Assembly: GCA_965261255.1 (NCBI GenBank)
Contig: CBDHCQ010000004.1
Location: 78,597 to 142,596 of the forward strand
Length of the DNA: 64,000 bases
Source of the DNA: Rhodothermales bacterium
GTDB taxonomy: Bacteria; Bacteroidota; Rhodothermia; Rhodothermales; Bin80
Direction of reading: 5' to 3'
Below are positions 5,344-26,122 of this stretch, piece by piece; the stretch's first letter is position 1, and every line of letters starts with the position of its first letter. The translations under genes and the position numbers were made by a program. A model generated the notes under the pieces. The model searched no databases and was not told the origin of the DNA. It saw nothing but the letters and a program-made list of their open reading frames with translations.

Positions 5344-7197
5344 TCAGTTAGTGTTGGTTGCATCCACGAGAATGCGTGTCATGCGTGCGACGAATGCAGA
5401 AGGTTCTGAGAGGTTACCATCCATCAAGAGTGCTCCTTCGTACACTTGTTCGATAGCTTCCTCAACTAGGTTGCATTGTTTTTTCTCGGAATTCAGAGCC
5501 AGGATATTTTTCATGAGTGGGTGCTCCACATTGACTTCTAGGACCTTTCTTGCTCCCTCATAGTCTGGGTTCATGGATTTCATCATGCGCTCCATCTGCG
5601 GATCCATTCCATCTTTGGCTGTCACCAGTGTCGCAGCAGAATCCACTAGGCGTTTGGATGCAGCCACATCCTGTATCCGTTCACCTAACTGAACGCGAAA
5701 GAGCTTGAGGAGGGTATCGGTATCATCATCGGGCAGAGAGACCTCTTCAGAATCATCACCAAGATCAAGATCCGTCCCGGTGATACTCTTGAAAGACTTT
5801 CCTTCAAAGTCCTCCATGTTTGGCAACGTTAGTGTATCAACGGGGTCTGGAAGGAGTAATACTTCAATTCCCTTGCGAGCGAATACCTCGAGATGAGGAC
5901 TGGTGCGGGCGGATTCGAGGGAATCAGACAAGAGGTAGTATATGTTTTCCTGATCCTCCGGCATGCGCTCAACGTAGTCCTTGAGTGCTGTTAAGCTCCT
6001 GCCGTCTGGGTGGGTTGAATAGTAGCGCATGAGCTCCAGGAGCTCTTCGCGTCGGGCGTAGTCGCTCCAGAATCCAGCTTTGAGTATTCCCCCAAAGTTG
6101 CTAAAAAACTTGTCGTAAAGCCCCTCATTCTCTGAGGTCCAGTCCTTTAGAAGGCCGAGAATCTTGTTGGTGAGGGTAGAGCGGATTCGCTGGGCGGCAG
6201 GACTGTTCTGGGTAACCTCCCTGGATACATTCAGTGGAAGGTCATCCGTGTCCACTACCCCTTTTATGAACTGTAAGTAATCCGGCAACAACTCCTGCGC
6301 ATCGTCTCGTACGAATACTCCCGAGGAGTAAAGGTGGAGACCGCGTCGATTCTCTTCTTGGAAAAAGGGTGCGGAGGGCTGTGAGGGAACGAAAAGGAGT
6401 GCATCAAACGAAATCAGTCCCTCAATCTGCAGGTGTAAATGCCCGATAGGTTCCGAGTAATCGCCCGTCAGGAACTTGTAAAACTCGTTGCGCTCTTCAT
6501 CTGTGATGTCGTCCTTGCGTTTTCTCCAGAGCGCTTTGATGGTATTCGCCTGTTCGGAGCCCAGGATGATTGGGAAGTCCACAAAATTTGAGTATTTCCG
6601 AATTATTGACCGTACGCGAAGCTCCGTCGCAAAATCTTTGGTGTCCTCCTTTAAGTGCAATTTAATACTGGTTCCATGCTCACTACGTGTGCCCGGACTA
6701 ATTGTATAGGTGCCTGCACCATCGCTGCTCCAGCTCAATGATTCGGCTTCTTCGTCCGCATGCAGCGTTTCAATATCTATTTTATCGGCTACCATGAAAG
6801 CAGAATAGAAGCCCACGCCAAACTTTCCGATCATGTTGGCATCAACCTTTTTGCCGGCTGCTTTCTGCTCCTCAATAAAGGCCAGCGTACCGCTGCTTGC
6901 GACGGTTCCCAATCTATTGATCAGATCGTCGCGCGTCATACCAATCCCGGTGTCCTCTATGGACAGGGTATTGGCCTCCTCGTCCATAGTGATAGTAATC
7001 TGGAGGTTCGTTTTGTCACCTTCAGAGTGGTCAGTCAGTTGACGAATGCGGGCCTTGTTGAGTGCATCCGATGCATTGGAGATTAGTTCTCGCAAGAATA
7101 TCTCCTGGTTAGTGTAAAGCGAATTAACGATGAGATGCAGCAACTGCTGCATCTCGGCCTTGTATTCAAATTGTTGGGATTGTGTGGTTTCCGCCAT
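5344..7197 (-). CDS. htpG: molecular chaperone HtpG (Hsp90)
   Basis: FEYKAEMQQLLHLIVNSLYTNQEIFLRELISNASDALNK, then IGKFGVGFYSAFMVADK. Full-length 617 aa. Confidence 0.97.
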   Translation of the reverse strand: MAETTQSQQFEYKAEMQQLLHLIVNSLYTNQEIFLRELISNASDALNKARIRQLTDHSEGDKTNLQITITMDEEANTLSIEDTGIGMTRDDLINRLGTVASSGTLAFIEEQKAAGKKVDANMIGKFGVGFYSAFMVADKIDIETLHADEEAESLSWSSDGAGTYTISPGTRSEHGTSIKLHLKEDTKDFATELRVRSIIRKYSNFVDFPIILGSEQANTIKALWRKRKDDITDEERNEFYKFLTGDYSEPIGHLHLQIEGLISFDALLFVPSQPSAPFFQEENRRGLHLYSSGVFVRDDAQELLPDYLQFIKGVVDTDDLPLNVSREVTQNSPAAQRIRSTLTNKILGLLKDWTSENEGLYDKFFSNFGGILKAGFWSDYARREELLELMRYYSTHPDGRSLTALKDYVERMPEDQENIYYLLSDSLESARTSPHLEVFARKGIEVLLLPDPVDTLTLPNMEDFEGKSFKSITGTDLDLGDDSEEVSLPDDDTDTLLKLFRVQLGERIQDVAASKRLVDSAATLVTAKDGMDPQMERMMKSMNPDYEGARKVLEVNVEHPLMKNILALNSEKKQCNLVEEAIEQVYEGALLMDGNLSEPSAFVARMTRILVDATNTN

Positions 7198-12908: not shown

Positions 12909-14862
12909 CATTGTAGTGGATTTTTTTGCTGAGATTCCGTGCCCCCTATTTTCAAGGGATTCAAAAAGAGCTGTTTTAGGTTGTATTCTTACACTTCGGC
13001 GTTCTCTTTTGTAGGGCGTTTTGCCTTGATTCGCTGCGTATTCCGCCCCAGTTTGAGCCCCATTGCCTGAAAGACTTGACGCTGGAATGGCTTGAGATCC
13101 TAGTCTTGTTTGAGCGGGATCGCGTGCGTCTTATTTTGAGGAAACACGGTCGTCACGCGCTGGTGCTCGTTGAGTTTGACCTTGAGGGTGGCCCAGCTCT
13201 TGTGGATCTGTATTGCGCACAACCTGCTTCGAATCAGATGCACGACATGGAAGGCCAGGATGGACAGGAACAGATGGGCTTCAATCTGCTCATCCTTGCT
13301 GTGATAGATTGGGCGGAAGCCCAAGTCGGATTTCATCGTGCGGTAGGAGTGTTCAATTTCTCCCAACTGCCAGTATGTTCGCGCAAGATACTCACAGGAC
13401 CACTTCGCATGACTGGTACGCAGGACGTATCCGCCAAAGGCTTCGGTGCAGGCATCGTAGGCCGACCGACGCGTCAGGAGAATCTTTTCGGCGTGCGCTG
13501 GCTGGCCCTTTTTCTTCACAACTTTGACCTCGTAGTGATATCCGACCTGTTTGTACTTCTCCATGAGCCGTCCCTCCTTTCGCTCAATCACCGCATACGT
13601 CTTCGGACGTCGGGGCATCGTGAGCTCCTCGTTCAAGTGTGCAATGGCCGCTTCAAATTGGGCGCGCTTCGTGCTGATGATTTGATCGCTGACCGCCTGC
13701 CGGACCTCACTGTGTAGATACACCCGCCGCTCTCCATCATTTCCCCCCAAGCTTCCAGGCACGTACATACACCTCGTGAGTGGATTGAAAAACTTGATCC
13801 GGTTCCCGGTCCAGAACCGGGGGCGTCTTCGTGCGCTCTACACAGATCCAGTTCAATCCTTCTTCCCTCAAATACGCCAAATACGCCTCGGTTGCGATGC
13901 CCGCATCCATAATGACCGTTGGCTGGTCCCCGTTCAACTGTTCGATGGCCCTGCACAAAGTCTCCGGCTCACTCGCATTGCCGGGGAGAATTTCTGCGGT
14001 GCGCGGGAACCCCGAGGCATCAAGCGTCATCGCCAGCGTGACCAGCGGACAATCGTTGCGCTTGTCCTTGCTGCGCCCATAGCGCAAGCGCGCGCCTTTC
14101 TTGCGACCTGTGTAGTAGGTGTTGGTCAGATCATAGAACACGATCGTTTCCGTAAAACCCAATAAGGCCTGGGTGTTGCCAAAGAGTTCGTCAATAATCG
14201 TCTTCCGGTGCGCGTAGAGCCCAGCAGCAATGCGGTAGAGCGTCCGGTCACAGGGACGTTTGGCTTGGAGTAATTCCAGTATACAGGACCGTTCGCACAT
14301 CCAGTCGTAGGTTTGCCGCTCGCTCCCGGGAGAGAGCATTCGTCCCACGACCAGGGCGGTGGCCCAGTGAATCTGATCCCGGTTGAAGTTCAAGGTTTGC
14401 AGGATCTGGGTAAACCCCAGCAGATCCAGCGCTTTGAGCGCCACGCGCTCGCTGCCAATGGTTCGCGTGTCGGGATGATGGATTTCATTGGTGAGAATGG
14501 CATCCCGGTCATCCCGTGGATCATGGACATCATAGCCCTTGCGTTTGAGCTTCTCCATGATGTCCTGACTGGCCTGGTGAAGGACTTCATCTTCAAACGG
14601 CAGGCGCGCATGTCCGTGCAAGCCGTCGCGCACGAGTTGCATGAGCGTCGGCCATTGTTCTTTGGGGAGGTTGAAGTCTTTGCCGAGGTTGAGGAGGGTT
14701 CGTTGCCGGGGATTTCCGTGGACGCGATAGGATTCAACAGTGGAGTAGTAGACGACCTTTTTGCCGGATTTGAGGGTACGGGGTTTGGCATAGACATACA
14801 TGGTCGGGGTGGGGTAATTGGGGGTTGAACGGTGGGGTTGGCGAAAAAATCCCACTACATTG
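12909..14862 (-). mobile_element. IS1634-family-like insertion sequence (about 1.95 kb)
   Basis: Imperfect terminal inverted repeats: cattgtagtggatttttttgc at 12909-12929 versus the reverse complement of gcgaaaaaatcccactacattg at 14841-14862. They enclose the split transposase gene. Confidence 0.65.
13100..14801 (-). pseudogene. IS1634-family (IS4-like DDE) transposase, split by a 1-nt frameshift
   Basis: N-terminal part MYVYAKPRTLKSGKKVVYYSTVESYRVHGNPRQRTLLNLG (start at ATG 14801), C-terminal part ...YWQLGEIEHSYRTMKSDLGFRPIYH. The two ORFs overlap at 13737-13768, and the frame change maps to a C6 homopolymer at 13743-13748. Confidence 0.75.
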
Positions 14863-15008
14863 AGGGGTTTCGGCAAAACCATTCTATAAGGGCGTAATTT
14901 GCCCTAAATAGACCAATGTAACCCCGAAATCGGGGGTTCTTACCCCGAAAAACCCGAAATCAGGCCAAAAACTCAGACAGGATGGAATGGAAATACCGAA
15001 GTCGCGCC

Positions 15009-15232
15009 AGGTGCGGTCCTCCCTAGCCAAGCCCCCGTGACACCCTGCCTCGCTACGCCACGCCGCGATTTTAAATGGGACCGTCCACCTGAGTTACCCT
15101 AGGTGCGGTCCTCCCTTGCCAAGAAGCCCAGCGCCGCCTTGCCTCGCTACGCCATGCCATGCCTCGCCATGCCACGATTCTAAATGGGACCGTCCACCCG
15201 AGTTACCCCTAGTGCAGTCCTCCCTCGTCGAG
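15009..15232. repeat. tandem direct repeat, about 92 and 110 bp units plus a partial third
   Basis: Unit 1 is 15009-15100 and unit 2 is 15101-15210. Both start aggtgcggtcctccc and end ttaaatgggaccgtccacc(t/c)gagttaccc(c)t. A partial unit, agtgcagtcctccctcg, starts at 15211. Confidence 0.8.
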
Positions 15233-15397: not shown

Positions 15398-16309
15398 TTA
15401 TCCTCGGATTCGAGGAAGATTATCATGCTGAGTTTTCACAACATTGTCCGTGATCTCTCGCAACTCATCGTCGTCTAAAATACTAAGTTCCCTTGAAGCT
15501 TGAATTGAGCCGATTGCTTGACAGGCAGACCGTAGGCCCGCTCCCTTTCCTAATGGTGTGTTAGGCTTTCTTTCCAATAGCTCGGCCAGACTAAGGATGA
15601 ATGAGCTCCGAATTCTGTGTGAGCCAAGTACCGAATTCCGAGATACGACTAGCATTACCAAATTCTCCCAGTAAGCTTTATTTAATCGTAGAACCTCTCG
15701 GACTTTGCGCATAAGAACATGATCACCCCTTGAAACCTGCCTAACTAGATGTTCTCTCCACCAAGCTCGTGCGAAAGGGCAATCCACATAGACGGATCTA
15801 TTCCCCCGAGCTTCCTGCAAACCACCTAAGCGTCTAAGAATCGTTCGTACTCGACGATCAACCAACTCATTTCGCCTATCCCCCTGTCCCTTGAGGAGTG
15901 TTTTGATGTCCCGTGCACCATTAGAGTCTGGCTTTCCGCTTGCAGCCAAGTAAGAAGCTTGAATCAGGCCACTTTCAATATGACGAAGGGTAACAGTCGC
16001 CCAGAAAGTTGTCCTACACGCAATTCTGGGGGTAATGCTTAACCAAGCATTAAAAAGACTTTGTTCTGTATCTGTGGGAGGCTGCTTGAATTCACTCTCA
16101 GTCAAGGGAGTCGGGAGAAGAGTGATCGTCTTAGAGCCTGGTGTGAACTCCACAGAACTCATGATAAAATCAAGAAACCCCAGATTACTCTGGACTGCCT
16201 TGAGAAGTTCTAACTGTAGTTTGGAACCTTTCTTTTTGAGCAAATCTCTTCGCAGTTTCGAAAATGATTCATCCTGAAATTCTTCATAGCTATTATGTAC
16301 CATGCTCAC
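15398..16309 (-). CDS. hypothetical protein (303 aa), last gene of the five-gene operon
   Basis: Its ATG overlaps the upstream stop (ATGA at 16306-16309). Arg-rich and probably helical. I recognise no family motif. Confidence 0.7.
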   Translation of the reverse strand: MSMVHNSYEEFQDESFSKLRRDLLKKKGSKLQLELLKAVQSNLGFLDFIMSSVEFTPGSKTITLLPTPLTESEFKQPPTDTEQSLFNAWLSITPRIACRTTFWATVTLRHIESGLIQASYLAASGKPDSNGARDIKTLLKGQGDRRNELVDRRVRTILRRLGGLQEARGNRSVYVDCPFARAWWREHLVRQVSRGDHVLMRKVREVLRLNKAYWENLVMLVVSRNSVLGSHRIRSSFILSLAELLERKPNTPLGKGAGLRSACQAIGSIQASRELSILDDDELREITDNVVKTQHDNLPRIRG

Positions 16310-17154
16310 TCATCTTCTGATTGGTCCGGGATATCGTGAGGATACAATTTTGTAGCGACTTCCTCAGGGCGAAAATCAGGCTCGCTCCAGTGAGATAAAT
16401 TCTTCTGTTTTAGATGGTCGGCGAGGATGTCAAGGTTACGAGAGGATGATTCTCCACCATCATCGTCATTTTTAAACTCTCTTTGTAGGAAAGCAAAACA
16501 TGCCGTGACTATATTGGTCATTATGTGTGATCGTACACTCCCTTTTTTCTGAAGGAAGGAGTGGAGCTTTGGATTAAGACGGACCAAAAACCGAAAATCT
16601 TCTTCAGTCTGTGCACCAACATAAAACTCTCCGGGTCCCAATTCTTGATCAGGGTTTAGGGTTAGTAACTGCAGTATTGAGGAGGATCCAAACCGAATCA
16701 AGGTTCCGAGTGCAAGTCGACTTCCTTTCCTCAATGTTATCGTCTGGTTGTCCCAGATTTGATGGACACCGTCTTTTTTAGCATTCAGTCTGAGATCACG
16801 GTCGGGAACAGTACTGACTATCATTGGCGTGAGAATTGGGGGTTCGCCGAGATCGTCGCTATTCCAAGAGATACAATGTTCCTCGGTTTTCGATGTATAT
16901 GTTTTTCGATATGAGGATTTGGGGGATGAAACGGCGCAAACGTAGATCGCTTTGTTTTCTTGCAGTAAACGCGAAATCAGCGGAGCTCCTTCAATCCGAT
17001 GAGTGATAATGAACGAACACTTATCGTCGCCAGGCACACATTCGATGATGTATTTGCCTTTTGGAAAGGAGATATTACCAGACTCCAGTATTGGAAATCG
17101 TGGTGACCGAATAGCATTTGACGGCTCTGTCGAAGAAACGGAGAACTGGTACAT
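16306..17154 (-). CDS. hypothetical protein (282 aa), fourth gene of the operon
   Basis: Starts 25 nt after the GHKL gene stop. Acidic C-terminal tail (DIPDQSEDE). I recognise no family motif. Confidence 0.7.
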   Translation of the reverse strand: MYQFSVSSTEPSNAIRSPRFPILESGNISFPKGKYIIECVPGDDKCSFIITHRIEGAPLISRLLQENKAIYVCAVSSPKSSYRKTYTSKTEEHCISWNSDDLGEPPILTPMIVSTVPDRDLRLNAKKDGVHQIWDNQTITLRKGSRLALGTLIRFGSSSILQLLTLNPDQELGPGEFYVGAQTEEDFRFLVRLNPKLHSFLQKKGSVRSHIMTNIVTACFAFLQREFKNDDDGGESSSRNLDILADHLKQKNLSHWSEPDFRPEEVATKLYPHDIPDQSEDE

Positions 17155-17179: not shown

Positions 17180-19114
17180 CTACCCCTTGTATATGTCTAC
17201 TCGGAGCGTTGGCTCGTGATCAGGAGGCAATATAAGGTTGTGGGGAAGAGAGTATTCTAAAACAATATCTAAGCTGTCACCAGATTCAATATTGCCAAGG
17301 TGGACGCCCGTAATCTGTTCATTTTCCTTAATGAGTTTCCTCTTATCAGCAGGTTTGTCGTCTATACGTACCTTTCTGAGAATGAGGGCTTTGGTATCAT
17401 TTCTCGAACGAAGGTCACACGTTGCATCTATATTTTGGTCCACGCACAAACGAAGTTGAGCGTCACTCAAACTACTGTGACATTCCACAACGACCCTCTG
17501 ACTATTTGTGTTAACTGCCACCGATGTTGCCGTAAACACAGGACCCAATTGGGGTTGGGGACGTGACTTAGTCGATTTTGAGGATTTCTTTTTGCCTTTT
17601 TTATGCGAGGGGCCTGGGCCCACATCTGATTCCGCGTAAGATTTGGAAGGAATGCGTTTGTCAATTGCCTCAGGACTTCCCCAGAAAGATGGGTAATTCG
17701 GGCCAGTTTCTCCTTCCCGTCCGAAATCTAGCGCAAGAAAGTCATCTGGGTTATATGACTCAGAGCTTATTTTCGGAGCTTTAGCTTTAAGCCATTCTTT
17801 AATTTTGCCAAAAGCGTTCCCCAATTCGCGCGCTTTGTCTTTCGATAGTCGTTGCTTGGGATGTAGTTCGTTGTGCAGCGGACCTTCGGCATTGCGCACA
17901 AACTCATGTAGCTTCCCGCCCGACTTTGAATTGAGCAATAAAACGGCATGAAAAGGTCGACGATCTGAAAATGCATACCGAAGCCTAGGAAGGTTGTTTG
18001 CGTCGGAAATCCACATGCCATTCCTATAAAGGTCAACTTGAGTCACGCCAGAAGCTGTAGAACCATACCGGACCTCTACGTCTCCAAGCTCTGTTGGTAT
18101 CGTGTGCTTCTCACCTTTTTGGAATGTGACATAAGCGGAATAGGCTCGGGATCCGCTGATGAAAGCCCCCGGCTTTTTTCTTTTATTTCCCCTTTCCTCC
18201 TCCAATACCTCTCTAAGTATTACGCGATCCAATATCAGCAGATCACCGGCATTATGCTTAAAGCGTAGATCTTCAAATTCAACAATGAGACGACCTTCAT
18301 GAATCGCTGGGAAGAAGTTGCGCGCAGCAGATTTAAAAACAAGATCCGAAAGTTTTTCTGGAGACTCTTTGAAATAATTGAATGCAGGGACAATTATGGC
18401 CGTCCCATGTCTCCAATTTTGCGTGATCCAATCCACATCCTGTGCGATGAGGAGAGGCAAATGCCGGTCGGTAGCACAGATGTGATGCCCTTTTTCCATT
18501 TTGTGAACCAAGAACCCATCCCCGGATCTTGGTTGTTCGTCGCCGTCTCGGATGCTCGAAGCGAGAACAGCGTGGCCTGAACCTATCCTTTCTCCCTTGA
18601 AGTTAACTCCACCATAGAGGATATAACGCAAGTTGGATGCAGGTATGATGGTCGAATGGCCATTACCATAGGTACCCATTGCATCTCTACCCTTAACGCT
18701 GATACCATCACCGAGTAAAGCCCTCATCCGAGAATCATCTAGGCCAATACCATTATCAAGGACTGACAAGACGTCCTGCTCACTCTGCCCTAGTGCTTTC
18801 CGTATGACCTCGACTACACGAGAAGCCTGGCTGCTAAGCTTTCCTCCTACACTTTTGTGAGTCTCCACAGCACATTCGAAAGTATCCTTGTATTCCTGAA
18901 TGCCAGGAATTCCTTCATTCTTACAGCGAGTAAGACGAAATCTTATTTTGGCCGACTTAACGCCTGCTTCGATGGCTGCATCAAGAGAATTCTGCACTAA
19001 CTCTCGAACGATTGCCGAGGGTCGGAGGTCACTGAATCCAGAGATTCCAGACGGGGTAAATCCCCTGGAAGATCCAGGAAAAAACCGTAGCTTCGGTAGA
19101 GCATTATTGGTCAT
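17180..19114 (-). CDS. GHKL-superfamily ATPase (Bergerat fold), 644 aa, with a long non-catalytic C-terminal region
   Basis: N-box ELVQNSLDA (aa 38-46), G1 box LDNGIGLD (aa 119-126), G2 box GTYGNGHS (aa 147-154). Lys/Ser-rich linker PSHKKGKKKSSKSTKSRPQPQ. The start overlaps the desulfurase stop by 11 nt. Confidence 0.85.
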   Translation of the reverse strand: MTNNALPKLRFFPGSSRGFTPSGISGFSDLRPSAIVRELVQNSLDAAIEAGVKSAKIRFRLTRCKNEGIPGIQEYKDTFECAVETHKSVGGKLSSQASRVVEVIRKALGQSEQDVLSVLDNGIGLDDSRMRALLGDGISVKGRDAMGTYGNGHSTIIPASNLRYILYGGVNFKGERIGSGHAVLASSIRDGDEQPRSGDGFLVHKMEKGHHICATDRHLPLLIAQDVDWITQNWRHGTAIIVPAFNYFKESPEKLSDLVFKSAARNFFPAIHEGRLIVEFEDLRFKHNAGDLLILDRVILREVLEEERGNKRKKPGAFISGSRAYSAYVTFQKGEKHTIPTELGDVEVRYGSTASGVTQVDLYRNGMWISDANNLPRLRYAFSDRRPFHAVLLLNSKSGGKLHEFVRNAEGPLHNELHPKQRLSKDKARELGNAFGKIKEWLKAKAPKISSESYNPDDFLALDFGREGETGPNYPSFWGSPEAIDKRIPSKSYAESDVGPGPSHKKGKKKSSKSTKSRPQPQLGPVFTATSVAVNTNSQRVVVECHSSLSDAQLRLCVDQNIDATCDLRSRNDTKALILRKVRIDDKPADKRKLIKENEQITGVHLGNIESGDSLDIVLEYSLPHNLILPPDHEPTLRVDIYKG

Positions 19115-20276
19115 GGACCATAAAGTTTATGCGGTTAATTTCAGAGAAAGCGGCAATCGCAACATCTATTTCTTCATCGCTGGTAAATCGACCCAAACTT
19201 ACACGAAATCCCGATTCAGCGACCTCTGGCTTTAGGCCCAGTGCGAGTAAGACCCTTGATGGCCGCGTGCTTCCTGACGAACAAGCAGCCCCCGTAGATA
19301 TAGCTAATTTATCTGAAACCGTTTCAATTACCTGGTGAGCGAGGATCCCAGGAAAACTAAGACTCAGATTCCCGGCCACACGATGATTGGGATGACCAAA
19401 AAGTCGGATACTGGAACAGATCTGCTGAAGCCCGTCTCGGAGACGCAAAGTAAGCCGTAACATTCGGGCCGAATCCTGAGGCCATTCATTTGCGGCTATC
19501 TGGCATGCTTTTCCAAAGCCAGCAACCAAACCGACAGGAATGGTACCAGGCCTTAGGCCATTCTCCTGTCCGCCTCCAGTAAAGATAGGTTCTATTGGCG
19601 TACCGCTTCGGACAAATAGTGCCCCGATCCCTTTCGGGCCATATACCTTGTGAGCGGAAAGGCTAAGCATGTCAACACCCCACGAATCAATATCAATATT
19701 GATTCGCCCGGCTGCTTGTGTCGCGTCCGTATGAAATAACGTATTATTAGCACGACACAGAGCGCCGATGTCACTCAGTGGCTGAATGACACCGATCTCG
19801 TTATTTACCGCCATGATCGTGACTAAGGCAGTACGTTCGCTCAAAGCACGTTCTAAATCGGCGAGGTTAACCAGTCCATCTTTATCTACAGGCAACACGG
19901 TAATTTCAAATCCCATGTGTCCCAAGTCGTGAACTGTATCCAAGACAGCCGAATGTTCCGTGGTGATGGTAACAAGCTGATCTCTATGACTGTTCCTGAA
20001 GGCTTTTGCAATACCACGTATGGCCAAGTTACAAGACTCGGTAGCTCCCGAAGTAAAAATAATCTCTTCATCGTCCGCTCCGATAAAATCTGCGATTTGC
20101 CCACGTGCTAACTGTACTGCGTCAAAAGCTTCCCAGCCGTATGCATGGTCTATTGAGTGTGAATTCCCAAAGCTAATCTCGAAATAAGGCCGGACCGCTT
20201 CCAGTACACGGGGATCAATGGGGGTAGTCGCTTGGTAGTCTAAATACACCTGACGTGATGCCGCGTGCTGAATCAT
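19104..20276 (-). CDS. NifS/IscS-type cysteine desulfurase (DndA/SspA-like by context)
   Basis: YLDYQATTPIDPRVLEAV, FTSGATESCNLAIRG, PLP-lysine motif SAHKVYGPKGIGALFVR, catalytic Cys loop STGAACSSGS. The ATG at 20276 forms an ATGA overlap with the upstream stop. The ORF track's TTG at 20285 is an alternative start. Confidence 0.93.
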   Translation of the reverse strand: MIQHAASRQVYLDYQATTPIDPRVLEAVRPYFEISFGNSHSIDHAYGWEAFDAVQLARGQIADFIGADDEEIIFTSGATESCNLAIRGIAKAFRNSHRDQLVTITTEHSAVLDTVHDLGHMGFEITVLPVDKDGLVNLADLERALSERTALVTIMAVNNEIGVIQPLSDIGALCRANNTLFHTDATQAAGRINIDIDSWGVDMLSLSAHKVYGPKGIGALFVRSGTPIEPIFTGGGQENGLRPGTIPVGLVAGFGKACQIAANEWPQDSARMLRLTLRLRDGLQQICSSIRLFGHPNHRVAGNLSLSFPGILAHQVIETVSDKLAISTGAACSSGSTRPSRVLLALGLKPEVAESGFRVSLGRFTSDEEIDVAIAAFSEINRINFMVHDQ

Positions 20277-21628
20277 TCGGTACAATCACAGGGAAGTAAA
20301 GTGCTGGAGTATTTTTTTAGATTTGGTTCATCAGCTGTTGATAAGAGCCTGTAAGAAAAATCAGTTTCTGTACCGAAGAAGCCAATGACGGTATTCGCTA
20401 GATTACTCTTGATTTTTCGTTTTTCGGCCACCAGGTCTCGGCCATACTTTTCTTCCATCTTGATCCACCAAGCTATATCAGAGGGAGTTCCGAGAAGTGT
20501 TCCAAATCCGGGCACTTTGTCATTTTTCTCTTTCTCCATACTCTCACGAACATTCCGTAAGTTTGAAACACCTTTTAAAAAACAATAGACGCAGTTTGAA
20601 AGACTTCCTTGTTGGGGTAGCGAAAGGTCCCAAGGTTGCTGATCCCAAAAAGCATTTACATTCTTTCGGGTAATTCCCAGATCTGCCAAGGGCATATAGA
20701 CATGCTCTCCGGTATATCCTGAAGCCCCCGGACCAGAGTTTCTGGCGAAAACGCGGCGAACCCGAAGTTGCTCATCGCCCCTAAGTCCCACAAATGCAAT
20801 ATACTCAACTCCATCTTTTCCGAACAAAGTCTGTTTTTCGGATGTCTTGGCTGCTAGTTTAGAATTTTCAAATGGTCGCCAAGAGGAGGAATAATCAATG
20901 TATCTTTGTTCTGGACGGAAATATGGTCGAGACAAAACAAAAGCTTTTTTTTTCGCGAAAATACTTTTCGGAACTCCGCCACGATGCCGTAGATGACGAC
21001 GATACATTGAATCAAGATCTATCCTAGAACGATTCCCATAGTGGCCCAGCCGTGGGATTGATTCCCGTCCGACCAACCAGTCTTTCAAGAACATGCGTGT
21101 TGTTTCCAATTTCATATTTGCAGTGCAAATCCGAGAGAACTGGTTTGGAACGTAGCCTGACCAAGAAAGAAGCTCTTCAAATACTTCTCCGCGCCAGTGG
21201 AATCCATCTTGATTCTGGCTTGAACGTGGACGCTCGTTCACAATACGGTAGGTCGGCAGGCGAGTCCATTCGCCATTTCGGGCATCTTCGTAAGTTTGAA
21301 ACTCAATCCAAAAAAACGGTATCCCGTACCGAGTTGAGGCATCCTTGCAGTCTCTTGCAAATCGGTATGTTTCCGGGTGTTCAGAAGATGTATTGTTAAA
21401 AATAATAACATCACCCCGATCTTGATCTAAGATCTTATTCGCCAGAAGCGTAAAAAGTAGCATTCCGCTGGTACGACCACCTGAAAACTTCACGATGTGA
21501 GGCAGATCCTGATGGTGTTTGGCACGATACCGGAGAAGGTGCATATTCGAACCTCCAACAGAATTCCGGGATTGGCCTCGGGTTTGAATTACAAGGTGAG
21601 GTACGGAACGCAATGGTCTAGAGAGCAT
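20273..21628 (-). CDS. PAPS-reductase-family PP-loop ATP pyrophosphatase (DndC/SspD-like by context)
   Basis: PP-loop KFSGGRTSGMLL (nt 21467-21484). Cys motifs SNCVYCFLKG and C-terminal LLPCDCTE. First gene of the operon. An alternative start is the ATG at 21544 (MHLLRYRAKHH). Confidence 0.85.
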   Translation of the reverse strand: MLSRPLRSVPHLVIQTRGQSRNSVGGSNMHLLRYRAKHHQDLPHIVKFSGGRTSGMLLFTLLANKILDQDRGDVIIFNNTSSEHPETYRFARDCKDASTRYGIPFFWIEFQTYEDARNGEWTRLPTYRIVNERPRSSQNQDGFHWRGEVFEELLSWSGYVPNQFSRICTANMKLETTRMFLKDWLVGRESIPRLGHYGNRSRIDLDSMYRRHLRHRGGVPKSIFAKKKAFVLSRPYFRPEQRYIDYSSSWRPFENSKLAAKTSEKQTLFGKDGVEYIAFVGLRGDEQLRVRRVFARNSGPGASGYTGEHVYMPLADLGITRKNVNAFWDQQPWDLSLPQQGSLSNCVYCFLKGVSNLRNVRESMEKEKNDKVPGFGTLLGTPSDIAWWIKMEEKYGRDLVAEKRKIKSNLANTVIGFFGTETDFSYRLLSTADEPNLKKYSSTLLPCDCTE

Positions 21629-24960: not shown

Positions 24961-26122
24961 GGAAACTCTGATTTATGTTGGCGAAACTCACTATGTTACG
25001 ACATCCAGATATCAATGATCAACGTGCCATGAGACAACTCACTTTCGAGGACGTCACCTACCTCAACCGTTCGCGCAAGACGCGCAGGCAGCGTTTTCTG
25101 GAAAGGATGGATCGTGTTCTGCCATGGGATACCTTCCTGGCCATACTGAAGCCGTACTACCCCAAAGGCGAAAGGGGGCGTCCTCCAATTCCCTTGGAGA
25201 CGATGCTGCGTATTTACTTTATGCAGCAGTGGTTCGATTTGTCAGACCCGGCAGCGGAAGACGCGGTCCATGATATTTTTCCGATTCGGATGTTTGCGAA
25301 GGTGCAACCGGGCTATGCGCCGGATGAGACGACGATCTGCAAGTTCCGGCACTGGCTGGAGGAGCATGGACTGACGAAGCAGTTATTACGGGTCAGCAGT
25401 CGGCATCTCGAGAAGCACAAGATCCTGGTGCGAGAAGGCACGATCGTGGATGCCACCATTATTGCGGCGCCATCGTCAACCAAGAACAAGGAGCGCAAGC
25501 GCGATCCAGAGATGGCCTCCACGAAGAAGGGCAACACCTGGCATTTCGGTATGAAGGCGCATGTGGGTACAGATACGCAAGGGTTGGTGCATACGGTGGA
25601 GACGAGCGCAGCCAATGTGCATGACTCGGAGATGATGTCGGCGTGTCTGCACGGTGAGGAGGAGGTGATCTACGGGGACAAGGGCTATGTGAGCGAAGCC
25701 GGAAAGACCCAAGCGGAAGCCTGCGGGGTGACTTGGCGTGTATTGCGCAAGGCCACCCGAAAGCGCAAGCTCAACTGCGCGGACCAATCCTTCAACCGCA
25801 AGAGTAGTCGGACCCGGGCCAGAGTCGAACATGTCTTTGGCGTGATCAAGCACCAGTGGGGCTTCCGCAAGGTTCGCTACCGAGGGTTGGAGAAGAACAC
25901 AGCCCAACTGTACACGCTCTTTGCGCTTGCCAACTTCCATATGGCCGGCGACCGATTACTGGCCTTACAGGGATAGGTATGCCCTGTAAGCACAGATAGG
26001 GTACTTTGGGCCTTCTTCCCGAACTGTTTTACCAGAATTCAGACCAAAATCGCACATCAGAGGCACCACTAAACCCATTTTGGACTGGATTTGCAAATAA
26101 CATCGCGTTGATCAGACCTTCC
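24961..26122 (+). mobile_element. IS5-family insertion sequence (1162 bp) with 4-bp TTAA target duplication
   Basis: The left end ggaaactctgattta and the reverse complement of the right end ggaaggtctgatcaa match at about 12 of the first 17 positions. TTAA lies at 24957-24960 and again at 26123-26126. Confidence 0.8.
25029..25976 (+). CDS. IS5-family DDE transposase
   Basis: MRQLTFEDVTYLNRSRKTRRQRFLERMDRVLPW...GRPPIPLETMLRIYFMQQWFDLSD...IVDATIIAAPSS...YGDKGY. Intact frame. Start at ATG 25029. Confidence 0.92.
   Translation: MRQLTFEDVTYLNRSRKTRRQRFLERMDRVLPWDTFLAILKPYYPKGERGRPPIPLETMLRIYFMQQWFDLSDPAAEDAVHDIFPIRMFAKVQPGYAPDETTICKFRHWLEEHGLTKQLLRVSSRHLEKHKILVREGTIVDATIIAAPSSTKNKERKRDPEMASTKKGNTWHFGMKAHVGTDTQGLVHTVETSAANVHDSEMMSACLHGEEEVIYGDKGYVSEAGKTQAEACGVTWRVLRKATRKRKLNCADQSFNRKSSRTRARVEHVFGVIKHQWGFRKVRYRGLEKNTAQLYTLFALANFHMAGDRLLALQG

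What the first reader, a model, noticed from the sequence alone, without database searches (positions are those of the whole stretch)
15398..17154. Two coupled orphan proteins (282 aa and 303 aa) at the 3' end of the operon; candidate nuclease/sensor components
Both ORFs are clean and tightly coupled (ATGA overlap), and I recognise no catalytic motif in either. The 282-aa protein has an acidic tail. The 303-aa protein is Arg-rich and helical-looking (RRVRTILRRLGGLQEARGNRSVYVDCPFARAWWREHLVRQV). In Dnd/Ssp logic the functions still missing here are DNA nicking or target recognition and PT-sensing restriction, so these are the natural candidates. That is inference only.
Basis: inference. Interest (0 to 1): 0.6.

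Follow-up and report, generated by a model that had tools for sequence, protein, structure and literature searches.

The report
Partner subunits of a sulfur-marking DNA defence cassette
The two "orphan" genes are the conserved partner subunits of an unusual ATPase, and together with two DNA-sulfur-marking enzymes they form a five-gene cassette that looks like an undescribed type of phosphorothioate-based DNA defence, found mainly in sponge-associated bacteria.

Summary
Both ORFs are real and tightly coupled, but they are not orphans. The 282-aa protein (B) has 205 homologs and the 303-aa protein (C) has 782. B matches PADLOC PDC-M33B. C is a divergent DUF6339/PDC-M33C member. The upstream 644-aa gene is a divergent GHKL ATPase (PDC-M33A).

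In 26 of 26 related genome loci with enough DNA, this trio sits in the same order behind a PP-loop ATPase (SspD/BrxP-like) and a DndA/SspA-type cysteine desulfurase. In canonical PDC-M33 trios the neighbouring modification gene is instead a C5-cytosine methylase, often with Vsr. The sulfur-writing pair has therefore taken the methylase's place.

Eight divergent natural B–C fusion proteins show that B and C work as one unit. Neither has a recognisable nuclease fold, and neither keeps polar residues conserved across the family. B has an Ig-like sandwich. C has a confident all-helical fold with no match in the PDB.

Best reading (about 0.5): B–C is the non-catalytic DNA- and partner-binding unit of a GHKL-centred complex that tells phosphorothioate-marked DNA from unmarked DNA. 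Main rival (about 0.3): the trio helps target phosphorothioate writing, as DndD–DndE does. In 18 of 28 related loci PbeABCD lies next to the cassette. I found nothing in print on this cassette.

The parts
20273..21628 (-). D451: PP-loop ATP pyrophosphatase (PAPS-reductase-like), the predicted sulfur-inserting enzyme
   Evidence: PADLOC SspD 3.7e-8 and BrxP 8.1e-5. PHROG 424 PAPS reductase 2.7e-30. Pfam PAPS_reduct 0.0029, below the family cut-off. PP-loop S49-G-G-R-x-S54 and all six Cys are at least 96% conserved in 24 homologs. No PDB relative by sequence.
19104..20285 (-). A393: PLP-dependent cysteine desulfurase (DndA/SspA/IscS type), the sulfur donor
   Evidence: PADLOC SspA 7e-143 and DndA 1.7e-141. 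Pfam Aminotran_5 1.6e-77. NCBIfam IscS and DndA models match but score below their equivalog cut-offs.
17180..19114 (-). G644: divergent GHKL-type ATPase (PDC-M33A-like, paraMORC-like)
   Evidence: PADLOC PDC-M33A 1.5e-31. Only weak hits to HATPase_c, TopoVI-B, MutL, Hsp90 and sacsin models. Bergerat-fold motifs E38/N42/D45, D120/G124 and G147/G150/G152, plus R364 and E410-x3-H414, are invariant in 28 aligned sequences from both clades. A family profile gives only marginal PDB hits: Mlh1 E 0.24, HtpG E 0.75.
16306..17154 (-). B282: PDC-M33B-like partner subunit, with an N-terminal Ig/FN3-like beta-sandwich, a helical C-terminal half and an acidic tail
   Evidence: PADLOC PDC-M33B 1.9e-7. hhalign against canonical PDC-M33B gives probability 96.8%, E 2.2e-10 over residues 20-153. 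AF2 pLDDT 81. VIA Z up to 8.3 to FN3/Ig domains over residues 20-155, which is generic. 205 homologs and 405 representatives at 50% identity.
15398..16309 (-). C303 (probably 301 aa from the ATG at 16303): divergent DUF6339/PDC-M33C-like all-helical, Arg-rich partner subunit
   Evidence: Pfam PF19866 scores 21.5 bits, E 2.2e-4, below the cut-off of 23.2. PADLOC PDC-M33C 0.0029. 97 of 120 listed homologs carry PF19866. AF2 pLDDT 90.4, pTM 0.88. No PDB fold match: best Foldseek E 0.52, best VIA Z 6.3 on residues 229-301 only.
13737..14882 (-). DDE transposase flanking the cassette on its 3' side
   Evidence: Pfam DDE_Tnp_1 1e-5.
24975..25976 (+). IS5-like DDE transposase on the 5' side of the low-GC island
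   Evidence: Pfam DDE_Tnp_1 2.3e-31 and DUF772 2.1e-17. GC is 0.44-0.49 across 15.5-22 kb, against 0.50-0.58 in the flanks.

Best explanation
The 282-aa (B) and 303-aa (C) proteins are the two obligate partner subunits of the upstream divergent GHKL ATPase (G). Together they form a PDC-M33-type, paraMORC-like trio. B and C act as one non-catalytic unit; in other organisms they are fused into a single polypeptide. This unit binds DNA and the ATPase.

In this clade the trio is hard-wired into one operon with a DNA-sulfur writer: a PP-loop ATPase (D451) and a cysteine desulfurase (A393). That writer takes the place held by a C5-cytosine methylase next to canonical trios.

Inferred mechanism. D and A place phosphorothioate (PT) marks on the host's own DNA. 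The G-B-C complex loads on DNA as an ATP-driven clamp. The basic, all-helical C subunit contacts DNA and reads whether the mark is present. Unmarked (foreign) DNA is then blocked or handed to nucleases.

Shown here: family membership, strict five-gene synteny, natural B-C fusions, the swap between methylase and PT writer, and the absence of any recognisable nuclease.

For: 1. B and C match PDC-M33B/C and G matches PDC-M33A. B's homology to canonical PDC-M33B is confirmed by hhalign at 96.8% probability.

2. All five genes occur in the same order in 26 of 26 genome loci with enough DNA. The other 2 of the 28 loci are cut by contig ends. The record titles span Gamma- and Alphaproteobacteria, Bryobacterales, Latescibacterota, Longimicrobiales, Binatia and Chloroflexota.

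3. Eight natural fusions were found among 405 B-family representatives: five full B+C fusions and three of the B N-domain plus C. They are only 24-37% identical to each other.

4. Canonical trios were complete in 26 of 28 loci. L056 lacks a recognisable B and L078 is cut by its contig end. Three pairs of these loci are near-duplicates. A C5-cytosine methylase lies within 3 ORFs in 17 of the 28 loci, and Vsr in 8 of 28. Often the methylase directly abuts the trio tail-to-tail or sits in the same operon, as restriction and modification genes do.

5. Annotated plasmids show the same pattern.

6. By contrast, 0 of 131 ORFs flanking window-type cassettes is a Dcm methylase or Vsr, and none of the 104 ORFs flanking canonical trios is a PAPS reductase or a desulfurase.

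7. Locus L072 has two tandem C paralogs and two methylases.

8. A single PAPS-reductase-type gene suffices for PT synthesis in the Tdp system, according to PMC12914056 (passages read).

9. In the window's own genome (96.97% complete) no PbeC was found, and the PbeA model gave only weak hits that also ring in all 14 control genomes. The cassette therefore stands alone there.

10. The ATP-binding motifs of G are invariant, as are the PP-loop and all six Cys of D.
Against: 1. No nuclease was found in G, B or C. Across both clades B keeps only P21, L23, A69, a Trp, A267 and P276, and C keeps only F45, A97, W103, W183 and W184. How unmarked DNA would be harmed is therefore unknown.

2. PbeABCD lies next to the cassette in 18 of 28 window-type loci. 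A GmrSD_N protein lies next to it in 4 loci and DndB in 2. That is the pattern expected if the whole five-gene cassette is a modification module paired with interchangeable restriction modules.

3. DndD-DndE, an ATPase-plus-DNA-binder core, is described in PMC10853773 as the obligate, conserved core of the ATP-dependent Dnd PT-modification component (passages read). An ATPase core can therefore serve the writing side.

4. C's link to canonical DUF6339 is weak at profile level: hhalign probability 3%, E 0.015, although the alignment is colinear over 212 columns.

5. PT itself was not measured.

6. In 11 of 28 canonical trio loci no methylase is in view.
Confidence: 0.5

Rival explanations
1. 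Writer-targeting core. G-B-C is the functional analogue of DndD-DndE or SspC-SspB. In this reading an ATPase plus DNA-recognition subunits scans the genome and positions the D/A sulfur-insertion enzymes at target motifs. The five genes together form a PT modification module, and restriction is done by separate neighbouring modules (PbeABCD, GmrSD-like or HNH proteins).
For: The five genes are inseparable, in 26 of 26 loci. The neighbours, by contrast, vary in the way restriction partners of dnd and ssp modules do. PbeA-like genes occur in 18 of 28 loci and PbeC-like genes in 16 of 28. Representative hits are PbeA 6.2e-151 and PbeC 2e-45. GmrSD_N proteins lie directly after C in L001, L008, L022 and L023. 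HNH_2 occurs in L011 and L023, and DndB lies directly upstream of D in L016 and L017. PMC10853773 describes ATPase-plus-DndE cores to which PT or cytosine-methylase modification components are recruited, and it reports PbeABCD next to Dnd modification modules (passages read). The known PT systems Dnd, Ssp and BREX type 4 need an ATPase for PT synthesis (PMC12914056).
Against: In canonical trios the adjacent modification enzyme is a full-length C5 methylase (PF00145 covered end to end). Such enzymes need no ATPase helper, so the trio's conserved role is unlikely to be writer targeting. Trios also occur with no modification gene in view, in 11 of 28 loci. In the window's genome the cassette has no Pbe partner. 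TdpC writes PT without an ATPase partner (PMC12914056).
Confidence: 0.3
2. Cryptic nuclease or nickase. B or C carries an unrecognised catalytic site that nicks DNA, either for sulfur insertion (as proposed for SspB) or for restriction.
For: No other nuclease is encoded in the five-gene cassette. Within the window-type clade B has many invariant polar residues (E24, H52, C73, Y82, R83, D128), and so does C (D151, R155, D176, C177, R181, E215, N225). A Cys aligns between B of both clades in the hhalign alignment. C has a confident fold with no PDB neighbour, so a new enzyme fold cannot be excluded.
Against: No hit to DUF4007/SspB, DndB, DndE, BrxA or any nuclease family in Pfam, PADLOC, NCBIfam or PHROGs at E<=1. 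Neither model matched a nuclease fold. Across window-type plus canonical members, no acidic, His or Lys residue reaches 90% conservation in B or C.
Confidence: 0.1
3. The sulfur chemistry is not backbone phosphorothioation. D and A thiolate something else (a DNA base, or an RNA). Alternatively, the two-gene pair and the trio are merely adjacent, independent systems.
For: D451 is only remotely similar to proven PT enzymes (SspD 3.7e-8, BrxP 8.1e-5, no DndC hit at E<=1). It has no PDB relative by sequence. PP-loop enzymes working with desulfurases also thiolate tRNA bases (stated in PMC12914056). The pair replaces a base-modifying methylase.
Against: The fixed order and overlapping or near-abutting genes in 26 of 26 loci across many phyla argue against chance adjacency. 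The neighbours are PT-system genes: PbeABCD, and DndB PF14072 at 3.4e-23 and 9.3e-19. The best family hits of D are PT-system PAPS reductases.
Confidence: 0.07

Closest known systems
PADLOC PDC-M33 (three-gene 'phage defence candidate', proteins A/B/C; C = Pfam DUF6339)
   Same: The gene order is the same: GHKL-type ATPase, then a ~280-aa B, then a DUF6339-type C. HMM hits are A 1.5e-31, B 1.9e-7 and C 0.0029. hhalign for B gives 96.8% probability. Canonical examples were verified in L035-L037 and in 25 metagenome loci.
   Different: The window-type clade is distant: G is 16-20% identical to canonical A. C is about 60 aa longer than canonical C. The trio is fused into one operon with a PT-writing pair instead of sitting beside a cytosine methylase and Vsr. 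PDC systems are predictions by 'guilt-by-embedding' (preprint 10.1101/2024.01.29.577857, passages read).
paraMORC GHKL ATPases of restriction-modification operons (Iyer, Abhiman & Aravind 2008, PMC2292703), especially paraMORC2
   Same: [quoted passage not shown] G and all canonical A proteins have an invariant E410-x3-H414.
   Different: No paraMORC2 sequence was available for direct comparison, so membership is untested. The paper does not mention the B and C partners in the passages and section read, and it mentions no PT genes.
DndD-DndE and CxC-ABC-DndE (PbeC-PbeD) cores of Dnd/Pbe systems (PMC10853773)
   Same: The logic is the same: an ATPase plus small DNA-binding partner(s) forms a conserved core, which is coupled either to PT genes (DndC/DndA) or to cytosine methylases and sits next to variable nucleases (passages read). 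PbeABCD lies next to the cassette in 18 of 28 loci.
   Different: The ATPase here is GHKL-type, not a coiled-coil ABC ATPase. B and C are not RHH (DndE) proteins: there is no Pfam or PADLOC DndE/DndD hit, and the models are an Ig-like sandwich and an all-helical fold. That paper contains no occurrence of GHKL, MORC or HATPase.
SspABCD(-SspE) phosphorothioation system
   Same: A cysteine desulfurase (SspA hit 7e-143) and an SspD-like PP-loop ATPase (3.7e-8) are present. GmrSD_N/DUF262-type proteins follow the cassette in 4 related loci. That the PT-sensing SspE has this architecture is my recollection, not a tool result.
   Different: No SspB (DUF4007) or SspC hit was found for any of the five proteins at E<=1. 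SspC is a P-loop ATPase (PMC12914056), whereas G is GHKL-type.
TdpABC and BREX type 4 (brxPCZL) phosphorothioation systems
   Same: Both have a PAPS-reductase-type writer paired with a non-Dnd, non-Ssp ATPase machinery. In Tdp the single gene tdpC suffices for PT synthesis (PMC12914056, passages read). D451 weakly hits BrxP (8.1e-5).
   Different: No BrxC, PglZ or BrxL is present. The Tdp proteins could not be compared, because no sequence was at hand and D451 has no PDB match. The Tdp paper itself (Nat Chem Biol 2025) was not read; it is known here only from citation.

Membership tests
PADLOC PDC-M33 trio | A subunit matches the PDC-M33A model | tested here: met
   G644: E 1.5e-31 over residues 14-452.
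PADLOC PDC-M33 trio | B subunit matches the PDC-M33B model | tested here: met
   B282: E 1.9e-7. Profile-profile comparison with 24 canonical B sequences gives probability 96.8%, E 2.2e-10, for the N-terminal domain only.
PADLOC PDC-M33 trio | C subunit matches a PDC-M33C model | tested here: inconclusive
   C303: E 0.0029, 15.1 bits. hhalign against canonical C gives probability 3%, E 0.015, but the alignment is colinear over 212 columns with shared motifs.
PADLOC PDC-M33 trio | Contiguous A-B-C gene order | tested here: met
   Window. 26 of 26 window-type loci with enough DNA. 26 of 28 canonical loci.
Pfam DUF6339 (PF19866) | Score at or above the gathering cut-off (23.2 bits) | tested here: not met
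   The window protein scores 21.5 bits, E 2.2e-4. However, 97 of its 120 listed homologs carry a precomputed PF19866 hit. It is therefore a borderline, divergent member.
GHKL ATPase superfamily / paraMORC2 | Bergerat-fold ATP-binding motifs (N box, G1, G2) | tested here: met
   E38/N42/D45, D120/G124 and G147/G150/G152 are invariant in 28 sequences. HMM hits to HATPase_c, TopoVI-B, MutL and Hsp90 are all below their cut-offs. A family profile against PDB sequences gives only Mlh1 at E 0.24.
GHKL ATPase superfamily / paraMORC2 | [quoted passage not shown] | tested here: inconclusive
   E410-x3-H414 is invariant. Whether it lies in an S5 fold, and whether it is the same motif, could not be checked: G has no structure model and no paraMORC2 sequence was available.
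SspABCD | SspB (DUF4007) and SspC present | tested here: not met
   No SspB, SspC or DUF4007 hit for any of the five proteins at E<=1 in PADLOC or Pfam.
DndABCDE | DndD (ABC ATPase) and DndE (RHH) pair present | tested here: not met
   No DndD, DndE or DndC hit at E<=1. Only DndA/SspA is matched.
Nucleases (PD-(D/E)xK, HNH, HKD and others) for B or C | Recognisable nuclease family or fold with conserved catalytic residues | tested here: inconclusive
   No family hit. No fold match. No polar residue reaches 90% conservation across clades. The C-terminal half of B (about residues 160-282) was barely tested by the fold searches.
BREX type 4 | BrxP together with BrxC, PglZ and BrxL | tested here: not met
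   There is only a weak BrxP hit on D451 (8.1e-5). No BrxC, PglZ or BrxL was found in the cassette.
TdpABC | Homology of D to TdpC, and of G/B/C to TdpA/TdpB | not testable with these tools
   No Tdp sequences or models were available. D451, G644 and the B and C profiles have no significant PDB sequence matches.

The most novel reading that the evidence does not exclude
The five-gene cassette is a self-contained, fifth type of DNA phosphorothioation system, after Dnd, Ssp, Tdp and BREX type 4. A GHKL (MORC-like) ATPase replaces the P-loop ATPases of all known PT systems. The B-C unit, with C's confident but unmatched all-helical fold, is a new kind of reader of the DNA modification state. It would discriminate sulfur-marked from unmarked backbone and act without a nuclease, through MORC-like clamping or compaction of foreign DNA. 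The same trio reads cytosine methylation in its canonical relatives. If so, a reader chassis has been re-tuned from a base mark to a backbone mark.
Probability: 0.3. Interest if true: 0.85.

Novelty: new variant of a known kind. Interest (0 to 1): 0.7.

Why it matters
According to PMC12914056, the Dnd, Ssp and BREX type 4 PT systems each need a P-loop ATPase for PT synthesis, and that paper's search for new PT systems required a P-loop NTPase next to the PAPS-reductase gene. That search would have missed this cassette.

A GHKL-based PT cassette widens the known chemistry-to-machinery pairings of DNA backbone modification. It also gives the uncharacterised DUF6339/PDC-M33 trio a testable role, as a module that works with interchangeable DNA marks (5-methylcytosine or phosphorothioate). 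It links prokaryotic MORC-like ATPases to reading of an epigenetic mark, a theme proposed for eukaryotic MORCs in PMC2292703.

The cassette is strictly conserved and has spread across many phyla. Many of the carriers are sponge- or coral-associated genomes. These are communities where defence systems, including PT, are reported to be enriched (PMC5099237).

Tried and rejected
Fold and structure searches
- Foldseek against the PDB found nothing at E<=0.001 for B or C.
- VIA wide search gave only generic FN3/Ig matches for B residues 20-155 (Z up to 8.3). For C it gave only Z<=6.3 on the last ~70 residues.
- PDB sequence and profile searches gave no significant hit for D451, G644, the B profile, the C profile or the G-family profile.

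Other collections
- ESM Atlas: B matched only unannotated clusters of 281-286 aa. C gave nothing above 0.86.
- PHROGs: no hit for B, C or G.
- Viral contig scans with the window-type C alignment and the canonical C alignment found no relatives.
- Plasmid tblastn with the window's C and G found no match.

Sequence-feature scans
- The promoter and terminator scan over the operon gave counts at or below the shuffled expectation. The consensus used does not cover all promoter types.

Tools not available
- The search of earlier findings was not open.

Literature
- Zero papers for 'DUF6339' and zero for 'PDC-M33'.
- GHKL+Vsr+defense+methyltransferase gave 1 paper, which is irrelevant.
- phosphorothioat+GHKL gave 9 papers, 8 of them listed. 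None of the 8 listed titles or abstract starts concerns a GHKL-based PT system; I opened only one of them, the V. cholerae paper.

RNA evidence
- One sponge metatranscriptome run (X9) holds short contigs over parts of genes C, A and D. Contigs from an RNA library do not prove transcription, so I do not use this as evidence of expression.

Ideas considered and dropped
- That B or C equals SspB, DndE, DndB or BrxA: no family or fold support.
- That the trio is a housekeeping MutL- or Hsp90-type system: it was found in 0 of 60 related genomes, and the window's true HtpG is a different gene at 5344-7197.
Full report
**Observation.**
The minus strand of the window carries five tightly packed ORFs:
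- D451 at 20273-21628
- A393 at 19104-20285
- G644 at 17180-19114
- B282 at 16306-17154
- C303 at 15398-16309

D/A overlap by 13 nt and A/G by 11 nt. The G/B gap is 25 nt.

The longest C ORF starts at a GTG that overlaps B's TGA. The first ATG lies 2 nt after that stop. Most homologs start at that Met, so C is probably 301 aa.

B has pI 5.9 and an acidic tail. C has 31 Arg and pI 9.9.

The five genes sit in a low-GC stretch (0.44-0.49, against 0.50-0.58 in the flanks). DDE transposases lie at 13737-14882 and 24975-25976. B was found in 0 of 60 related genomes, 23 of them in the same genus, and once in the window's own 3.7-Mb genome. The cassette is therefore a recent horizontal acquisition.

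**The proteins are not orphans.**
B has 205 homologs and C has 782 at E<=1e-3. A profile of B finds 405 representatives at the 50%-identity level among 1.84 billion proteins.

B hits PADLOC PDC-M33B (1.9e-7). C hits PDC-M33C (0.0029) and Pfam DUF6339 (21.5 bits, just under the 23.2 cut-off). G hits PDC-M33A (1.5e-31). Of the 120 listed C homologs, 97 carry DUF6339.

Profile-profile comparison confirms B's N-terminal domain against 24 canonical PDC-M33B sequences (probability 96.8%, E 2.2e-10). For C the comparison is weak (probability 3%, E 0.015) but colinear over 212 columns, with shared motifs.

G is a very divergent GHKL ATPase. The Bergerat motifs E38/N42/D45, D120/G124 and G147/G150/G152 are invariant in 28 sequences from both clades, as are R364 and E410-x3-H414. 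Generic HMM hits are sub-threshold. A family profile only marginally touches Mlh1 and HtpG among PDB sequences.

**A conserved five-gene cassette.**
A scan of one genome per species returned 28 loci encoding a B relative. In all 26 loci with enough upstream DNA, tblastn finds D, A, G, B and C in the same order and spacing. The other two loci are cut by contig ends. In L006 and L020 the best desulfurase alignment covers only about residues 11-246.

The record titles span Gamma- and Alphaproteobacteria, Bryobacterales, Latescibacterota, Longimicrobiales, Binatia and Chloroflexota. One is named Candidatus Poriferihabitaceae. Near-identical copies of the window's cassette stand in runs labelled 'sponge metagenome': four runs from three studies hold 71-90% of the sampled words.

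D has a PP-loop (S49-G-G-R-x-S54) and six Cys conserved in at least 96% of 24 homologs. Its best family hits are PT-system PAPS reductases: SspD 3.7e-8 and BrxP 8.1e-5. A is a DndA/SspA/IscS-type desulfurase (7e-143).

**What canonical relatives show.**
I assembled 28 canonical trio loci:
- Three genomes of the same phylum carry canonical DUF6339 genes, found in a sample of 400 other genomes.
- 25 metagenome contigs had enough DNA, out of 44 loci returned by a scan with a canonical C alignment.

In 26 of these 28 loci a ~650-aa PDC-M33A, a ~280-aa B and a ~240-aa C stand in a row. L056 lacks a recognisable B and L078 is cut by its contig end. Three pairs of loci are near-duplicates.

Among 104 neighbouring ORFs, a C5-cytosine methylase (PF00145) lies within three ORFs in 17 of 28 loci, and Vsr in 8 of 28. 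The methylase often sits in the same operon or directly tail-to-tail with C, as restriction-modification pairs do. None of the 104 ORFs is a PAPS reductase or a desulfurase.

Annotated plasmids repeat the pattern. A Deinococcus plasmid has a cytosine methyltransferase, Vsr and then the trio. A Ligilactobacillus megaplasmid has the trio embedded between methyltransferase genes, with C annotated 'DUF6339 family protein'.

Conversely, 0 of 131 ORFs flanking window-type cassettes is a Dcm methylase or Vsr. The modification gene has been swapped. The PT-writing pair occupies the place of the methylase.

**Neighbours of window-type cassettes.**
Clustering of flank ORFs and annotation of representatives gave the following:
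- A PbeA-like helicase (PADLOC PbeA 6.2e-151) occurs in 18 of 28 loci.
- PbeC (2e-45) occurs in 16 of 28 loci, with a ~73-aa and a ~172-aa partner. Together these make up PbeABCD.
- Two conserved unknown proteins of ~492 aa and ~660 aa occur in 11 loci.
- A GmrSD_N protein follows C directly in 4 loci.
- DndB lies directly upstream of D in L016 and L017.
- HNH_2 occurs in L011 and L023.

[quoted passage not shown] That system is often found beside Dnd PT-modification modules and is sometimes coupled to cytosine methylases. These neighbours confirm a PT context.

In the window's own genome (96.97% complete) no PbeC was found, and PbeA gave only weak helicase hits of the kind that also ring in all 14 control genomes.

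**B and C work as one unit.**
Among the B-family representatives there are five full B+C fusions (584-634 aa). Three further fusions join only the B N-terminal domain to C (439-471 aa). The eight are mutually 24-37% identical, so they are old and independent of assembly errors. L022 carries an extra, divergent 560-aa B-C fusion right after its GmrSD-like gene.

**Folds.**
B (pLDDT 81) has an Ig/FN3-like sandwich at residues 20-155 and a helical C-terminal half. C (pLDDT 90.4, pTM 0.88) is all-helical with no PDB neighbour: best Foldseek E 0.52, best VIA Z 6.3 on 70 residues. No nuclease, SspB/DUF4007, DndB, DndE or BrxA family is hit.

Across both clades only hydrophobic, Pro or Trp positions reach 90% identity: P21, L23, A69, a Trp, A267 and P276 in B, and F45, A97, W103, W183 and W184 in C. 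That argues for binding subunits rather than enzymes.

**Interpretation.**
Shown:
- B and C belong with G to a PDC-M33/paraMORC-like trio.
- The trio is coupled to a modification enzyme.
- That enzyme is a methylase in canonical members and a PT-type sulfur writer here.

Inferred: because full-length C5 methylases need no ATPase helper, the trio's conserved job is more likely to act on DNA according to its mark (reader or restriction side) than to place the mark. D and A alone would then write PT. This has a precedent in TdpC (PMC12914056). I put this reading at about 0.5.

The main rival (about 0.3) is that G-B-C replaces DndD-DndE or SspC-SspB as the targeting core of the writer. Its support is that the five genes are inseparable while PbeABCD, GmrSD-like and HNH neighbours vary as restriction partners do.

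A cryptic nuclease in B or C (about 0.1) and non-PT sulfur chemistry (about 0.07) are not excluded.

No nuclease is visible in the cassette. The effector step is therefore either non-nucleolytic (MORC-like clamping) or delegated to other proteins.

**Comparison with known systems, and novelty.**
The closest catalogued entity is PADLOC PDC-M33. It is an untested candidate predicted by 'guilt-by-embedding', and zero papers mention it or DUF6339.

The ATPase resembles the paraMORC families of restriction-modification operons. It shares the ExxxH signature given for paraMORC2, but membership could not be tested.

The cassette fails the membership tests for Ssp (no SspB or SspC), Dnd (no DndD or DndE) and BREX type 4. 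It could not be compared with Tdp.

The reappraisal of Dnd systems contains no GHKL, MORC or HATPase term. The recent screen for new PT systems required a P-loop NTPase neighbour. A search for phosphorothioat+GHKL returned 9 papers, of which 8 were listed; none of the 8 listed titles or abstract starts concerns such a system, and I opened only one of them.

I therefore rate the cassette a new variant of a known kind: a PT-linked, modification-based defence built on a GHKL trio. It is well worth an experimental test.

Noticed in passing
window 14995-15232: Three imperfect direct repeats of 37-91 nt at ~100-nt spacing (70-81% identity) lie between the end of gene C and the DDE transposase gene. 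They may be IS-end or REP-like elements marking the island border.
   Followed up: no
L003, L005, L007, L012-L014, L016, L017, L025, L026 and others (e.g. L007:11749-15257): Two conserved proteins of unknown function lie between gene C and PbeA in 11 related loci. One is ~492 aa with no family hit. The other is ~660 aa with only a sigma-70 region-4-like HTH. They may be further components of an 11-gene super-cluster. They are absent from the window.
   Followed up: partly
L022:11792-15481: After the standard B and C genes, this locus has a GmrSD_N protein (615 aa) followed directly by a second, divergent B-C fusion (560 aa). This hints that a B-C unit can also pair with a DUF262-type effector.
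   Followed up: partly
L072:5664-9950: This canonical trio has two tandem C (DUF6339) paralogs followed by two C5-cytosine methylases. One reader per methylase would fit C being the specificity subunit, but this is a single case.
   Followed up: no
L035:6830-7063, L037:7156-7386, L043:5974-6198, L050:5969-6202, L058:2357-2590, L059:3634-3864, L076:5758-5997: A small ORF of 74-79 aa with no Pfam hit sits directly upstream of the ATPase gene in many canonical trios, and also in the two annotated plasmids. No conserved counterpart was seen in window-type cassettes.
   Followed up: no
window 15725-15943, 19865-20060, 20311-20877, 21320-21477: Short contigs from a sponge metatranscriptome run (X9) match parts of genes C, A and D. 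They carry the same variant letters as the DNA run from the same study. This is compatible with expression in the sponge but is not proof, since RNA libraries can hold DNA.
   Followed up: partly
protein P0453 (394 aa): One representative joins the N-terminal GHKL part of a G homolog directly to the C-terminal ~90 residues of a B homolog. This is probably a deletion or an assembly chimera rather than a functional fusion.
   Followed up: no
window 5344-7197: A housekeeping Hsp90/HtpG gene (Pfam HSP90 5.5e-112) lies 10 kb away. It is a different GHKL protein and is unrelated to the cassette's ATPase.
   Followed up: yes
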